Virus record (IMG/VR): IMGVR_UViG_3300032116_000025 | Direction: 5' to 3' (one strand) | Source: a virus | DNA: 64,000 nucleotides | Part shown: in pieces, positions 7,939 through 11,748 of the stretch | How positions within the stretch are numbered: position 1 is the first letter of the stretch | Layout of the letters: each line of letters opens with the position of its first letter | Program-made: the position numbers and the translations under genes | Notes under the pieces: model-generated | Databases searched by the model: none | What the model saw: the letters and a program-made list of their open reading frames with translations, nothing else | Told to the model about the DNA's origin: nothing

Positions 7939-8133
7939 ATGAGTCGTTCAGAACGCGAGCGGTCCCTTCTTCGTCGGCTACTTGCTATTGCTGTTCACCG
8001 GCTTGGTGGGGAAATGCGGGTCACCAAAGAAGAGGTCTTTACCGGCACTTGGGAGCTGGGGATGGACCACGCAACTCTCCCAACAGTGGTTACCGGATTT
8101 CGTGTAGCTTCTAAAGATCGTGATACTCTGTAG
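7939..8133 (+). CDS. hypothetical protein
   Basis: 64-aa ORF, no clear SD. Confidence 0.55.
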   Translation: MSRSERERSLLRRLLAIAVHRLGGEMRVTKEEVFTGTWELGMDHATLPTVVTGFRVASKDRDTL

Positions 8134-8230
8134 ATAGGCCGGTGAGCAGTTTCTGCTGCTTCCTGCTCTTTACCGACCCCGAAGCAGAGCAGCGTCAGGG
8201 GAAAGACGGCCACCCTTTAGGAGCGCACCT

Positions 8231-8464: not shown

Positions 8465-8764
8465 ATGTGCATCCTAAACGATAGCGAGAAGGCCGCGGTA
8501 TCCGCCGCGGTCACCACCATCCTGGAGAAGGGTCTGCCCTTCACGGGTCAGTCGGTCACGCACGAGTTGCGTGACCGGGGCGTCAACCTCCCTCACAGGG
8601 AGATTTCCTCGTACACGCGGGAGATCTTCAACGGCGGAAAGATGCCTGGGTGGGCTTCCACCCAGGTCGTCCCGGGCCTTGGCCCGGTGATGTACTTCCC
8701 GGTCCCGCCGCGTAGCGCGGCGGGGATGGCGGCGGCGAAGCTTCGAAAGAAGCTGGTCCCGTGA
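8465..8764 (+). CDS. hypothetical protein
   Basis: 99 aa, SD AAGGA, GTGA overlap with the next gene. Confidence 0.75.
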   Translation: MCILNDSEKAAVSAAVTTILEKGLPFTGQSVTHELRDRGVNLPHREISSYTREIFNGGKMPGWASTQVVPGLGPVMYFPVPPRSAAGMAAAKLRKKLVP

Positions 8765-9498
8765 AGGACGGTAAGCGGCGGAGGGCGAAAGCCCTCCGCC
8801 TGCCGGACGTCCCTGCTTTCCAGCAGGCGGCGTCCATCCCGGTTAAGGGCCAAAAGCCCCTAACCCAATTGGCTGACCTGGCGCGTGAGCGTCAGGCAAA
8901 GGGGCAGGAGGACATGCGTGAGGTGCGCAGGCACCTTGAGCGCTCCTGCAAAGAGTCGGGACGGCAGAACACCTACGGCGGGGTGTTCTACAGCTACACA
9001 GTGTTGAAGCCGAAAGAGCTTCGGCACAAGGACAACACGCGGACCCTGTGGCACGGTACCGCCCTCGGCAATCTCACGAACATCCTAATACACGGATTTA
9101 GGCCTTCGTACGGAGGGCTTATGGGTCCGGGCGTCTACTTCGGTGGACGCCAGAAAGCCGAGGCATACTCAAGGGCCCCCCTCGGAGCGCTGCTCCGATG
9201 CGAGGTGGCCCTGGGCCGAACAGCGGATGCCGTTCCCTCGTGGGAGGACGCGCGCCCGCCGTACGACACCCTACACGGCGTGCCCGGCCAGACGCGCACG
9301 TATGGATCGTCCACCCTTCTTAACGAAGAATGGGCGGTCCTTGACCCTGCCCGAATCTCCATTCACGAAATTCGGGTGTTCACTGCAAATCGAGGCGAGT
9401 GTGTCCGATGCGGACGCCTTGTCAGCGATGAGCACCTTCAGTCGAGGTGGTCACCGCGCCACAAAGACTTCATCAGGCTTTGTGGCCACTGTCTGTGA
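8761..9498 (+). CDS. PARP-like (H-Y-E clade) ADP-ribosyltransferase with C-terminal CxxC..CxxC finger
   Basis: LWHGT, GLMGPGVYF, KAEAYS, LLRCEVALG, NEEWAV motifs; CVRC...CGHC at the C-terminus. Confidence 0.8.
   Translation: MKDGKRRRAKALRLPDVPAFQQAASIPVKGQKPLTQLADLARERQAKGQEDMREVRRHLERSCKESGRQNTYGGVFYSYTVLKPKELRHKDNTRTLWHGTALGNLTNILIHGFRPSYGGLMGPGVYFGGRQKAEAYSRAPLGALLRCEVALGRTADAVPSWEDARPPYDTLHGVPGQTRTYGSSTLLNEEWAVLDPARISIHEIRVFTANRGECVRCGRLVSDEHLQSRWSPRHKDFIRLCGHCL
8868..8898 (+). repeat. 31-bp exact direct repeat, copy 2
   Basis: Identical to 7741-7771; encodes LADLARERQA in both genes. Confidence 0.9.
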
Positions 9499-9594: not shown

Positions 9595-9666
9595 GCCCCC
9601 TTAGCTCAGCGGTAGAGCAACGGTTTTGTAAACCGTAGGTCGTCGGTTCAATCCCGACAGGGGGCT
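9595..9666 (+). tRNA. tRNA-Thr(TGT)
   Basis: Cloverleaf with acceptor GCCCCCT/AGGGGGC, anticodon arm ACGGT-TT-TGT-AA-ACCGT and TTCAA T-loop; no encoded CCA. Confidence 0.95.
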
Positions 9667-9669
9667 CAC

Positions 9670-9750
9670 GCGGGAATGGCGGAATGGCAGACGCACCAGA
9701 CTTAGGATCTGGCGCCGAAAGGTGTGGGGGTTCAAATCCCCCTTCCCGCA
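9670..9750 (+). tRNA. tRNA-Leu(TAG)
   Basis: Anticodon arm CCAGA-CT-TAG-GA-TCTGG; long variable arm. Confidence 0.95.
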
Positions 9751-9754
9751 CAAA

Positions 9755-9828
9755 CGGGGTGTAGCACAGCCTGGTAGTGCGCCAGCTTTGGGAGCTGGAA
9801 GTCGCAGGTTCAAATCCTGTCGCCCCGA
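9755..9828 (+). tRNA. tRNA-Pro(TGG)
   Basis: Anticodon arm CCAGC-TT-TGG-GA-GCTGG; acceptor CGGGGTG/CGCCCCG. Confidence 0.95.
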
Positions 9829-9842
9829 CTAAGGAGGTACGA

Positions 9843-10363: not shown

Positions 10364-10915
10364 ATGCCTAACTGGTGCAGCAACCACGGATTCATCAAGC
10401 TTCCAACCAACGCTTCTCCAGAGGCTGTTGCGGCGTTTAGGGCGCTAAGCAAGGTCGAGGATGACAAAGATGAGTGGTTCGCTAAGGTGCTCCCGTGCCC
10501 CCCTGAAGCGGACTGGTACGAATGGCGGATCCGCCGTTACGGAACAAAATGGGACGTAACCCCCTCGCTTGCCGTAACGGACGACCAGATCAACTTCTCG
10601 TTTGAGTCGGCGTGGGCTCCGCCGCTAGAGTTTTTCAAGCATCTCGCGGAGACCTACGGCCTTCACTACCAGATTCAGTACTCAGAGCCGGGCTGCTGCT
10701 TCGGCGGTACCGCGTCCTACGACGGGGATTTTCAAGACAAGTACGTTGAAAACGAGGAGTACCTCGTCGCGGCGGTGGATGAGTTTGGCGAGCCGATAGA
10801 GTCGGTCCTGTGCGTCGAATCGTACGAGTCCTTCGACGCTTTCTGTAAGGCTCACAAAATTGATAGCCCAAGGCTCAAAGACTTGGTACGAGATTATTAC
10901 CGCGACCACAACTAG
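10364..10915 (+). CDS. DUF1281/YubB (Api92-like ferredoxin-like) protein
   Basis: MPNWCSN, WYEWRI..YGTKWD, FESAWAPP, YSEPG..FGG motifs. Confidence 0.8.
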   Translation: MPNWCSNHGFIKLPTNASPEAVAAFRALSKVEDDKDEWFAKVLPCPPEADWYEWRIRRYGTKWDVTPSLAVTDDQINFSFESAWAPPLEFFKHLAETYGLHYQIQYSEPGCCFGGTASYDGDFQDKYVENEEYLVAAVDEFGEPIESVLCVESYESFDAFCKAHKIDSPRLKDLVRDYYRDHN

Positions 10916-10921
10916 TGGTCG

Positions 10922-11006
10922 GGAGGAGTGGCCGAGTGGTCTAAGGCAGCGGTTTTGAAAACCGCCGTGGGGCAACCCACCAGGGGTTCGAATCCCTTCT
11001 CCTCCG
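10922..11006 (+). tRNA. tRNA-Ser(TGA)
   Basis: Anticodon arm GCGGT-TT-TGA-AA-ACCGC; long variable arm GTGGG-GCAA-CCCAC. Confidence 0.95.
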
Positions 11007-11011
11007 CTCGT

Positions 11012-11204
11012 GCCCGCCAACCACGGGCTAGTGAGGGTGGAATACCTCATGAAGAAGCGGGGTGGTTCCCGTACGTTAGATAGCCCCGGACCCCGGAGGG
11101 GTCGGAGGCGTACAGCCCGTAAGCGGTTCTGGCTGGAGGTCGTTTGGCTGGAGGCGAAAGCCGATGAAAGTCGAGTAGCCGACGAAGGTCAACCGTACTG
11201 TACG
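11012..11204 (+). ncRNA. putative structured ncRNA of unknown family (A)
   Basis: Fills the Ser-Val spacer with successive hairpins, complementary loops (AACCA/TGGTT) and a long nested stem closed by CGTACAG/CTGTACG. Confidence 0.55.
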
Positions 11205-11208
11205 AACT

Positions 11209-11280
11209 GCGGGAATAGCTCAGGGGTAGAGCGCCTCCTTTACACGGAGGAAGTCGGGGGTTCGAAACCCTCTTCCCGTA
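11209..11280 (+). tRNA. tRNA-Val(TAC)
   Basis: Anticodon arm CCTCC-TT-TAC-AC-GGAGG. Confidence 0.95.
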
Positions 11281-11284
11281 CTAA

Positions 11285-11370
11285 GCGAGCGTGGCGAAAT
11301 CGGCATACGCAGCGGATTTAAAATCCGCGGGGCCGCAAGGCTCGTGAGGGTTCAAACCCCTCCGCTCGCA
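11285..11370 (+). tRNA. tRNA-Leu(TAA)
   Basis: Anticodon arm GCGGA-TT-TAA-AA-TCCGC; long variable arm. Confidence 0.95.
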
Positions 11371-11377
11371 CTGTTAG

Positions 11378-11543
11378 TCCCGGTGAGGTGAGATCGGTCT
11401 CTCAGGAGACTAGGGCACCGGGATGGTAGTCAGATGAGCAACGTCGCTGTTGACCACGCGAAAGCGTACGAGGCGCGCCAAGTCGTCTGGCGAAAGGCAC
11501 ACCGGAAGGTGGCAAAGCCCAAGCCGTGGATATGCTGCACGGC
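11378..11543 (+). ncRNA. putative structured ncRNA of unknown family (B)
   Basis: TCCCGGTG/CACCGGGA stem with inner GGTCTC-TCAG-GAGACT, then ACGC-GAAA-GCGT, CGCCA/TGGCG, CACC-GGAA-GGTG and GCCGTG/CACGGC. Confidence 0.4.
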
Positions 11544-11547
11544 ATTA

Positions 11548-11619
11548 GGGATCGTAGATCAGTGGTAGATCAGCGGGCTTTTAACCCGTAGGTCGTGGGT
11601 TCGATCCCCACCGGTCCCA
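11548..11619 (+). tRNA. tRNA-Lys(TTT)
   Basis: Anticodon arm GCGGG-CT-TTT-AA-CCCGT. Confidence 0.93.
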
Positions 11620-11623
11620 CTTC

Positions 11624-11694
11624 TCGGGGTTCGTCTAAGGGCAGGACATCGGCCTTTGAAGCCGCGAATGATGGTTCGATTCCATCACCCCGAA
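11624..11694 (+). tRNA. tRNA-Gln(TTG)
   Basis: Acceptor TCGGGGT/ACCCCGA; anticodon arm CGGC-CT-TTG-AA-GCCG. Confidence 0.92.
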
Positions 11695-11708: not shown

Positions 11709-11748
11709 AACGCGCACTAGCCCCTCCCTAGTGCGCGTTTCTTTTGCC
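11709..11748 (+). terminator. hairpin terminator of the tRNA operon + TTTTGCC
   Basis: AACGCGCACTAG-CCCCTCC-CTAGTGCGCGTT. Confidence 0.85.

What the first reader, a model, noticed from the sequence alone, without database searches (positions are those of the whole stretch)
11012..11204. Unannotated ~190-nt structured RNA between tRNA-Ser and tRNA-Val, with a potential kissing loop
Seen: hairpin 1 GCCCG-CCAACCA-CGGGC and hairpin 3 GCGGG-GTGGTT-CCCGT have complementary loops (AACCA/TGGTT). Between them, TGAGG-GTGGAATA-CCTCA has a T-loop-like TGGAA. Next come GACCC/GGGTC and a long nested arm: CGTACAG/CTGTACG, GCGGTT/AACCGT, TGGCT/GGTCA, GTCG/CGAC, TTGGCT/AGTCGA, capped by GGC-GAAA-GCC. The same purine internal loop (GGA..GAA) is used twice. 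Adjacent tRNAs elsewhere in the array are separated by only 3-4 nt, so this insert would be released by tRNA processing. I cannot match it to a family I know.
Basis: partly seen in the sequence, partly recalled or inferred. Interest (0 to 1): 0.72.

Follow-up and report, generated by a model that had tools for sequence, protein, structure and literature searches.

The report
Orphan 198-bp insert in phage tRNA operon
A 198-base stretch sits between two tRNA genes of an uncultured lake phage where three related phages have only the four bases CTCT; it matches no known RNA or protein family and folds no better than the rest of the genome, so it is more likely a recent passenger insertion than a conserved new structured RNA.

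Summary

What I found:
- **Clean insertion.** Three related phage contigs carry the same Ser-Val-Leu block. They read tRNA-Ser-CTCT-tRNA-Val where this phage reads CTC-[198 nt, 11010-11207]-T.
- **No homologue.** Rfam, ARAGORN, blastn, exact-pattern scans, a covariance model and a protein search all found nothing. Covariation therefore cannot be tested.
- **No folding signal.** The shuffle z-score is -1.25, and 21% of the phage's own 198-nt windows fold as well. The proposed long arm has helix probabilities of only 0.04-0.22.
- **Two mildly unusual features.**
  - A 5-bp loop-loop complementarity occurs in 3-7% of controls.
  - An apical loop that fits the K-turn consensus occurs in about 5% of controls.
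- **A coding-like signal of similar weight.** One frame is open across the whole insert, and its internal repeats have in-frame periods of 15 and 18 nt.

My best reading (0.55) is a lineage-specific passenger insert that is co-transcribed and cut out during tRNA maturation. A functional small RNA remains possible (about 0.25). An earlier scan report reached a similar verdict for the neighbouring Leu-Lys spacer.

The parts
10922..11006 (+). tRNA-Ser(tga), the left neighbour. It is 98-99% identical in relatives L062 and L074.
   Evidence: ARAGORN; Rfam tRNA 59.4 bits; blastn
11007..11009 (+). CTC, the left three bases of the ancestral 4-nt spacer CTCT
   Evidence: Junction read in L062, L074 and L076
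11010..11207 (+). 198-bp lineage-specific insert. Its boundary is ambiguous by one C. It is 61% GC and G-rich (G 72, C 49, A 44, T 33).
   Evidence: blastn break points at 11009/11207; composition; identical in 6 metagenome contigs of the same phage
11012..11028 (+). H1, GCCCG-CCAACCA-CGGGC. Ensemble pair probability is only 0.07. Its loop is complementary to the H3 loop.
11032..11049 (+). H2, UGAGG-GUGGAAUA-CCUCA (P > 0.9). Together with the 3' strand of H1 it matches the variable-arm/T-arm junction of tRNA-Leu(taa) at 12 of 13 bases.
11057..11072 (+). H3, GCGGG-GUGGUU-CCCGU (P > 0.9). Its stem equals the first 5 bp of the tRNA-Val acceptor stem, and a 9-nt exact match (UUCCCGUAC) follows.
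11089..11103 (+). H4, GACCCC-GGA-GGGGUC (P 0.5-0.99)
11109..11204 (+). Proposed long nested arm. All pairs are valid, but helix probabilities are 0.04-0.22, and the arm alone has z 0.0 against shuffles.
11144..11174 (+). Apical module that fits the K-turn consensus: NC stem UUGGCU/AGUCGA, then G.A, G.A and A.G pairs, a GAU bulge, and a C stem GGC/GCC capped by GAAA.
   Evidence: Read from the sequence; pattern hit at 11151/11163 and its chance rate
11130..11192 (+). Two pairs of direct repeats. UGGCUGGAGG lies at 11130 and 11145 (period 15). GCCGAYGAARGUCRA lies at 11160 and 11178 (period 18). Both periods are multiples of three.
   Evidence: Read from the sequence (indexed)
11010..11321 (+). 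Reading frame open through the whole insert and on into tRNA-Val and tRNA-Leu (103 codons, with an ATG at 11049). It was not called as a gene in any assembly.
11208..11208 (+). T, the last base of the ancestral spacer CTCT
11209..11281 (+). tRNA-Val(tac), the right neighbour. RNase P cleavage at its 5' end would define the 3' end of the excised insert RNA.
   Evidence: the RNase P step is inferred from established tRNA maturation
11709..11739 (+). Intrinsic terminator-like hairpin that ends the operon after tRNA-Gln

Best explanation
The stretch is a 198-bp insertion, specific to this phage lineage, into the 4-nt spacer (CTCT) between tRNA-Ser and tRNA-Val. The operon belongs to an uncultured phage of about 160-168 kb and 59% GC that carries a tail-sheath gene, found in lake metagenomes.

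The insert has no promoter or terminator of its own, so it is transcribed as part of the tRNA precursor. RNase P cutting at the 5' end of tRNA-Val and 3'-end maturation of tRNA-Ser then remove it as an internal transcribed spacer. It is tolerated because the tRNA-processing enzymes excise it.

I find no evidence that its fold or sequence is under selection. Its origin is unknown. The hints point to a decayed fragment of a cargo gene or of tRNA-like DNA, left in an array that gains and loses cargo often.

Shown here: the insertion, its boundaries, its absence in relatives, the lack of any homologue and the lack of a folding signal. Inferred: co-transcription, excision and neutrality.
For: **Clean indel.**
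- Three independent relatives read ...CCG-CTCT-GCGGGAA, where the window reads CTC-[198 nt]-T.
- The relatives are L062/L077, L074, the closest, whose neighbouring ORF is 85% identical in protein, and L076.
- The blastn break points lie at 11009 and 11207.

**The array is a hot spot for cargo.**
- The Api92-like gene at 10364-10915 is also absent in L062, L074 and L078.
- L062 has an HD_4-type gene between tRNA-Leu and tRNA-Lys, where the window has 176 nt.
- More distant relatives (major capsid protein 56-85% identical) have no tRNAs at the syntenic site.

**No homologue.**
- Rfam gave nothing at gathering threshold or at E <= 10.
- ARAGORN called no tRNA or tmRNA in the gap.
- blastn against 50,697 phage records found nothing.
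- Four exact-pattern scans of IMG/VR found nothing relevant.
- Covariance model R1 found no credible match beyond the insert itself in 5 complete relatives and 368 kb of loci.

**No folding signal.** The long arm is disfavoured in the ensemble.

**One transcription unit.** There is no promoter-like or terminator-like site in the insert or anywhere from tRNA-Ser to the terminator at 11709.

**Gene-remnant hints.**
- One frame is open across all 66 codons.
- Its codon score is -0.02. Real genes score 0.36 +/- 0.16 and off-frames -0.42 +/- 0.25.
- Its GC by codon position (0.65/0.53/0.64) resembles that of the phage genes (0.63/0.45/0.67).
- The repeat periods are 15 and 18 nt.
Against: - The loop-loop complementarity (2.7-7.2% by chance) and the K-turn-like apical loop (about 4.7% by chance) occur together. 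If independent, their joint chance is near 0.2-0.3% before correcting for post-hoc choice.
- Three hairpins are very stable.
- The insert is kept identical in all six contigs that span it, from several samples. These are one population, with only 2 SNPs in 2.7 kb nearby, so this says little.
- Absence from relatives does not exclude a recently acquired functional RNA.
- The insert itself was never searched against the large JGI metagenome collection.
Confidence: 0.55

Rival explanations
1. It is a functional, newly acquired small structured RNA that uses the tRNA operon as its expression and processing platform. RNase P and tRNA 3' maturation release it. It would fold into a 5' domain of hairpins held together by an H1-H3 loop-loop contact, plus a long arm with one or two K-turn-like purine loops that could recruit a protein. 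It might act as a decoy or sponge during infection.
For: - H2, H3 and H4 have P > 0.9.
- The H1 and H3 loops are complementary over 5 bp, which is seen in only 2.7% of shuffles.
- The apical loop meets the K-turn sequence consensus, seen in 4.7% of shuffles.
- The module is duplicated on both strands in a nested way, so that both copies can pair.
- The insert sits exactly in the processing spacer and leaves both tRNAs intact.
- Phage T4 offers a precedent, with stable RNAs rnaC and rnaD inside its tRNA cluster.
Against: - The overall fold is at background level.
- The arm and H1 are minor species in the ensemble, and the proposed structure lies 10.7 kcal/mol above the MFE.
- No homologue exists, so there is no covariation.
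- All three relatives that share the array lack it.
- The motifs were picked after the fact from many possible ones.
Confidence: 0.25
2. It is protein-coding, or the recent remnant of a protein-coding cargo gene. The frame starting at 11010 (ATG at 11049, with GAGGGUGG upstream) encodes a very basic peptide containing WLExx and ADExxx repeats.
For: - It is the only frame without a stop over all 66 codons.
- It has the best codon score of the six frames and gene-like GC phasing.
- Both internal tandem repeats have periods divisible by three (15 and 18 nt).
- Neighbouring spacers of this array hold genes in this phage or its relatives.
Against: - The frame has no stop of its own. It runs 114 nt on, through tRNA-Val and into tRNA-Leu.
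- No gene was called there in any assembly.
- phmmer of the 66-residue translation against 1.84 billion proteins gave 0 hits at E <= 0.001.
- The codon score lies 2.4 sd below the gene mean.
- An open frame of 66 codons has about a 10% chance per frame at this GC content (my own estimate).
- The putative Shine-Dalgarno sequence and start codon lie inside the stable hairpin H2.
- The only pattern hit, an Endozoicomonas small ORF sharing WLEAK.DES, covers 9 residues and looks like chance.
Confidence: 0.1
3. It is what remains of one or two decayed tRNA or tRNA-like genes from the array. This would explain the 5-bp stems with 7-8-nt loops, the T-arm-like H2 and the acceptor-like H3. It concerns origin rather than function, and it is compatible with the best explanation.
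For: - Insert positions 16-29 match the variable-arm/T-arm junction of tRNA-Leu(taa) at 12 of 13 bases (p 0.047 for that tRNA).
- UUCCCGUAC is identical to the 3' end of tRNA-Val, and the H3 stem equals the first 5 bp of its acceptor stem.
- The helix GCGGU/ACCGU resembles the anticodon stem of tRNA-Ser.
- T4 rnaC likewise ends in a tRNA-like T arm and acceptor strand (sequence printed).
Against: - Over all 8 tRNAs the best local alignment is not significant (p 0.16).
- The tRNA covariance model gives no hit in the insert, even at E <= 10 with truncated alignments allowed.
- ARAGORN finds nothing there.
- The 105-nt arm has no tRNA counterpart.
Confidence: 0.1

Closest known systems
Phage T4 species 1 and species 2 stable RNAs (rnaC, rnaD) in the T4 tRNA gene cluster
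   Same: They are non-tRNA segments of 119-139 nt that abut tRNA genes in a phage tRNA cluster, on the same strand and within 1-6 nt. From established T4 literature, they are presumably released by tRNA-precursor processing and their function is still unknown. rnaC carries a tRNA-like 3' part, and the insert here shows faint echoes of tRNA.
   Different: - There is no sequence similarity (local alignment p 0.05 and 0.35).
- The T4 RNAs sit at the end of the cluster, not between two tRNAs.
- They are conserved among T4 relatives and are known to accumulate. This insert is unique to one lineage and its accumulation is unknown.
Spacer-derived regulatory RNAs of bacterial tRNA operons (3'ETS-leuZ and the metZ-metW internal spacer of E. 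coli, which act as sRNA sponges)
   Same: They are pieces of a tRNA precursor lying between or after tRNAs. The tRNA-processing nucleases release them, and they can have a function of their own (my own knowledge of the literature, not tested here).
   Different: Those spacers are short (tens of nt), act by base pairing with known sRNAs, and are conserved. No partner or conservation is known here.
K-turn (kink-turn) RNA motif
   Same: The apical internal loop at 11150-11168 has the consensus order. It runs C stem (GGC/GCC), 3-nt bulge (GAU), tandem G.A/A.G, a third A.G pair, then an NC stem.
   Different: This is a sequence match only. The C stem is just 3 bp under a GAAA loop, the helix has ensemble probability 0.2-0.6, and the pattern arises in about 5% of shuffles.
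DUF3800-IX RNA (Rfam RF02968)
   Same: It is the only Rfam model with any hit. The first 36 nt of the insert (GUGCCCG...CGGGCUAG.G.GGG) align to model positions 33-67.
   Different: The score is 13.1 bits against a gathering score of 36.8, with E 4.2. Only the 3' half of the model is matched, so its long closing helix has no partner. This is a chance-level match.

Membership tests
Any Rfam 15 family (4227 models) | Score at or above the family's gathering threshold | tested here: not met
   There was no hit in 11008-11208 at gathering threshold or at E <= 10 in a 2.4-kb search. On the insert alone, only DUF3800-IX hit, at 13.1 bits and E 4.2.
tRNA / tmRNA (including decayed or truncated copies) | Cloverleaf recognised by ARAGORN or by the RF00005 / tmRNA covariance models | tested here: not met
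   ARAGORN called 8 tRNAs, none of them in the gap. No tRNA or tmRNA model hit the insert at E <= 10, with truncated modes allowed. Local similarity to the array's tRNAs has p 0.16 overall.
Self-cleaving ribozymes found next to phage tRNAs (HDV-like/theta, hammerhead, twister, pistol, hatchet) and group I/II introns | Match to the family covariance model and its conserved catalytic core | tested here: not met
   No such Rfam model reached E <= 10. The 5' GUGCC and 3' AC ends and the CGAU-GAAA-GUCG hairpin only superficially recall a group II intron. At 198 nt the insert is far too short, and no domain V-like helix can be drawn (read from the sequence).
T4-type stable RNAs of phage tRNA clusters (rnaC / rnaD) | Sequence or structure homology to rnaC or rnaD | tested here: not met
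   Local alignment scores lie within the shuffle range (p 0.053 and 0.35).
T4-type stable RNAs of phage tRNA clusters (rnaC / rnaD) | Non-tRNA segment on the same strand, abutting tRNA genes of a phage tRNA cluster, with no promoter or terminator of its own | tested here: met
T4-type stable RNAs of phage tRNA clusters (rnaC / rnaD) | Accumulates as a discrete stable RNA during infection | not testable with these tools
   No expression data are at hand, and the phage is uncultured.
K-turn motif | C stem, 3-nt bulge, tandem sheared G.A/A.G and NC stem, in the consensus strand order | tested here: inconclusive
   The sequence pattern is met at 11151/11163. However, the host helix has P 0.2-0.6, the chance rate is 4.7% per shuffle and 0.046 per 198-nt genome window, and there is no covariation or probing.
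Conserved structured ncRNA (generic criterion) | Homologues with compensatory base changes | tested here: not met
   No homologue was found. All copies are 100% identical. The relatives with the array lack the element.
Protein-coding gene | Own start and stop, gene-like codon usage, and homologues | tested here: not met
   There is no stop before the tRNA genes. The codon score is -0.02 against 0.36 +/- 0.16 for genes. phmmer found 0 hits among 1.84 billion proteins, and no assembly called a gene there.

The most novel reading that the evidence does not exclude
The insert is a new class of small RNA that rides in a phage tRNA operon. tRNA-processing enzymes would release it. It would fold through a loop-loop (kissing) contact and one or two nested K-turn modules that recruit a host or phage protein. 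It would act in host takeover or counter-defence, next to the anti-defence-like cargo of the same array (tRNAs, a PARP-like ADP-ribosyltransferase, an Api92-like protein).
Probability: 0.15. Interest if true: 0.6.

Novelty: new member of a known kind. Interest (0 to 1): 0.25.

Why it matters
If the insert is only a passenger, it is a small but clean example of how phage tRNA arrays gain and lose material at the short spacers between tRNAs. In four related phages, three junctions of the same array differ in cargo: a 198-nt insert, an Api92-like gene and an HD-domain gene. Because the tRNA-processing machinery cuts out whatever lands there, these spacers may be permissive landing sites.

If the RNA is functional, it would add an uncharacterised K-turn-bearing RNA to the very few known non-tRNA products of phage tRNA operons. 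With only one lineage carrying it, that claim cannot be tested by sequence comparison. It needs expression data.

Tried and rejected
**Known RNA families.** Rfam at gathering threshold and at E <= 10, on the region and on the insert alone, gave nothing usable. I considered SRP, 6S, tmRNA, T-box, ribozymes and group I/II introns, and rejected them for lack of any model hit.

**Homologue searches.**
- blastn in 'distant' mode against the phage records found none.
- Four IMG/VR exact-pattern scans based on the insert found nothing relevant. The direct-repeat pattern hit only coding repeats in unrelated phages.
- One GTDB genome scan with the K-turn hairpin pattern hit a small ORF in two Endozoicomonas genomes. 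They share 9 residues (WLEAK.DES) and I judged this to be chance.
- blastn and covariance model R1 found no credible match in five complete relatives or in all fetched loci.

**Neighbour-gene routes.**
- The Api92-like protein has only distant relatives, and no tRNA array lies beside them.
- The PARP-like protein gave nothing in IMG/VR.
- A tRNA-Ser 3'-end pattern hit an unrelated AT-rich phage.

**Other ideas.**
- A multi-copy mobile element (MITE-like): there is no second copy in the 64-kb window and there are no terminal inverted repeats.
- Coding: see the rival explanation.
- Relatedness to the second spacer at 11372-11547: none (p 0.74).

**Could not do.**
- The window's whole genome and the ENA record are not held, so the remaining roughly 100 kb of the phage was not checked for other copies.
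- The 48-kb contig of the closest relative has no DNA on file.

Full report
**Context.** The window is part of an uncultured phage.
- It is 59% GC throughout.
- Among its genes are a tail sheath, a major head protein, a large terminase, a topoisomerase II and a helicase.
- The same genome occurs, essentially identical, on contigs of 160-168 kb from several ENA and JGI metagenomes.
- ARAGORN and Rfam agree on eight tRNA genes on the + strand: Thr-Leu-Pro at 9595-9829, Ser at 10922-11007, Val-Leu at 11209-11371 and Lys-Gln at 11548-11694.
- Within each block the genes are 2-3 nt apart.
- Two ORFs lie between Pro and Ser, one of them Api92-like (PF18406).
- There is no promoter-like or terminator-like site in the insert or anywhere between tRNA-Ser and the hairpin-plus-T-run at 11709-11739. 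The stretch from Ser to Gln therefore reads as one transcription unit.

**The observation.**
- One adenine (11191) was used in two helices, so GCGGUU/AACCGU is really GCGGU/ACCGU with a UC bulge.
- The "same purine loop used twice" comes from direct repeats. UGGCUGGAGG occurs at 11130 and 11145, 15 nt apart. GCCGAYGAARGUCRA occurs at 11160 and 11178, 18 nt apart.
- The inner copy (11144-11174) fits the K-turn consensus well. It has a 3-bp C stem (GGC/GCC) under a GAAA loop, a GAU bulge, G.A, A.G and A.G pairs, and then a 6-bp NC stem.
- The outer copy can be drawn the same way in a different register (GGU/GCC, bulge GAC).

**Is it more than chance?**
- The insert's MFE is -77.4 kcal/mol, against -71.6 +/- 4.7 for dinucleotide shuffles (z -1.25).
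- The 5' domain alone gives z -0.6 and the arm alone z 0.0. The tool's own shuffle test on 11008-11208 gave z -1.78.
- Compared with 642 windows of 198 nt from the same phage, 21% fold at least as well. After correcting for GC, the insert sits at z -0.26.
- In the ensemble, H2, H3 and H4 are solid (P > 0.9). H1 has P 0.07 and the arm helices P 0.04-0.22.
- Nearest-neighbour rules undervalue K-turns and tandem G.A pairs, so this does not exclude the arm. It gives the arm no support either.
- The two most specific features are mildly unusual.
  - A loop-loop match of at least 5 Watson-Crick pairs between two 5-bp hairpins occurs in 2.7% of shuffles and 7.2% of genome windows.
  - A K-turn-like pattern occurs in 4.7% of shuffles and at 0.046 per genome window.
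- Taken together they are suggestive, but they were chosen after looking.

**The decisive comparative result.**
- A scan of JGI metagenome contigs with a 22-mer from tRNA-Val found one contig, L062 (Ga0129333_10004073, 13.7 kb). It carries the same eight tRNAs in the same order.
- Its coding flanks are 66-80% identical to the window, and its tRNAs 94-98% identical.
- There, tRNA-Ser is followed by CTCT and then tRNA-Val.
- I traced relatives of the ORF between Pro and Ser through the protein collection. This gave two more independent contigs.
  - L074 is the closest: that ORF is 85% identical in protein and the region 83% identical in DNA.
  - L076 carries a different array, Ser(gga)-Ser(tga)-Val-Leu(caa).
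- Both read ...CCG-CTCT-GCGGGAA.
- The window reads CTC-[198 nt]-T, and the blastn break points lie at 11009 and 11207.
- So the ancestral state is the 4-nt spacer, and the 198 nt (11010-11207, ambiguous by one C) are an insertion in this lineage alone. There is no target duplication beyond that one base, and there are no terminal inverted repeats.
- Other junctions of the array vary too.
  - The Api92-like gene is missing in L062, L074 and L078.
  - L062 has a 142-residue HD_4-type gene between Leu and Lys, where the window has 176 nt.
- More distant relatives (major capsid protein 56-85% identical) lack tRNAs at the syntenic site altogether.

**No homologue of the insert.**
- All six contigs of this phage that span the insert carry it without a single change. 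They offer no variation to analyse.
- Rfam gives nothing at gathering threshold or at E <= 10. The only hit is a 13-bit, 5'-truncated match to DUF3800-IX (E 4.2) when the insert is searched alone.
- blastn against 50,697 phage records found nothing.
- Four exact-pattern scans of IMG/VR found nothing relevant.
The best non-self hit scored 16.5 bits, needed large deletions, and lies inside a gene.
- A pattern for the K-turn hairpin hit two Endozoicomonas genomes, inside a small ORF. I regard this as chance.
- There is no second copy in the window.
- T4 rnaC and rnaD, the classical non-tRNA products of a phage tRNA cluster, show no similarity.

**Coding?**
- The frame that begins at 11010 is open through all 66 codons of the insert. 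It has the best codon score of the six frames: -0.02 per codon, against 0.36 +/- 0.16 for genes and -0.42 +/- 0.25 for off-frames. Its GC phasing is gene-like.
- Both internal repeats have periods divisible by three.
- Against coding:
  - The frame has no stop until it has read through tRNA-Val into tRNA-Leu.
  - No assembly's gene caller called it.
  - An exhaustive phmmer search of 1.84 billion proteins gave no hit.
  - The candidate ribosome-binding site and ATG lie inside hairpin H2.
- A live gene is unlikely. A decayed fragment of a former cargo gene is a fair guess at the origin.

**tRNA-derived?**
- Insert positions 16-29 match the variable-arm/T-arm junction of the neighbouring tRNA-Leu(taa) at 12 of 13 bases.
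- H3 repeats the first five acceptor pairs and the 3' end of tRNA-Val.
- One arm helix resembles the anticodon stem of tRNA-Ser.
- The best of these has p 0.047 alone and 0.16 over the eight tRNAs. The tRNA model sees nothing in the insert. This is a hint, no more.

**Verdict.**
- The gap and its complementary segments are real. The claim of a selected structured RNA is not supported, and with one carrier lineage it cannot be tested by comparison.
- Most likely (0.55): a recent passenger insertion into a permissive tRNA spacer. It is co-transcribed and removed by RNase P and tRNA 3' maturation. These steps are inferred from established tRNA processing, not shown here.
- A functional small RNA with a loop-loop contact and K-turn modules keeps about 0.25, and a coding role about 0.1.
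- An earlier follow-up in this scan (e1-5679260) reached the same kind of verdict for the adjacent Leu-Lys spacer. Its remark that a relative has a gene there was the lead to L062, and I confirmed it.

**Limits.**
- The insert itself was not searched in the JGI metagenome collection.
- The rest of this phage's genome was not available.
- All E-values from R1 are rough.

Noticed in passing
window 8136-8212 (+): This is a CyVA-1 RNA (Rfam RF02965) above its gathering score (47.7 against 41.4 bits, E 9e-8). It lies just downstream of a 64-codon ORF in the same accessory block as the tRNA array.
   Followed up: no
L062 8443-8868 (- strand; L077 4839-5267): The relative carries a 142-residue HD-domain gene (weak PF13328 HD_4 hit) between tRNA-Leu(taa) and tRNA-Lys. 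Read by eye, it looks like a small alarmone hydrolase. The window has only a 176-nt non-coding spacer there, and the first roughly 15 nt after tRNA-Leu are shared.
   Followed up: partly
window 10364-10915 (+): The Api92-like gene (PF18406) just upstream of tRNA-Ser is absent from relatives L062, L074 and L078. In those contigs the preceding ORF ends 6-60 nt before tRNA-Ser. It is a second lineage-specific insertion flanking the same tRNA.
   Followed up: partly
window 7969-7982 (+) against insert 11174-11187: There is a 14-nt perfect antisense match between the 3' strand of the insert's arm (AGUAGCCGACGAAG) and codons 11-15 of the small ORF at 7939-8133. The blastn-short E-value is 0.037 within the window, so it could be chance.
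   Followed up: no
L074, L077, L078 and window 8761-9498: A PARP-type ADP-ribosyltransferase gene (PF00644) sits just upstream of the Thr-Leu-Pro tRNAs in the window phage and in two related lineages (L074; L077/L078). It therefore belongs to the conserved core of this accessory block, unlike the inserts.
   Followed up: no
L047 1-2378 against L048 1-3135: Two otherwise near-identical assemblies of this phage differ upstream of the array. L047 has a 1280-residue Ig-domain protein where L048 and the window have the InPase polyprotein, small ORFs and the PARP gene. This could be a contig end or circular permutation, or a real rearrangement.
   Followed up: no
L091 (T4 NC_000866) 70908-71046: T4 rnaC (species 1 RNA) ends in a sequence that looks like a tRNA T arm plus acceptor strand (CCGGGTTCGAATCCCGG...). 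This is a reminder that non-tRNA products of phage tRNA clusters can derive from tRNAs.
   Followed up: no
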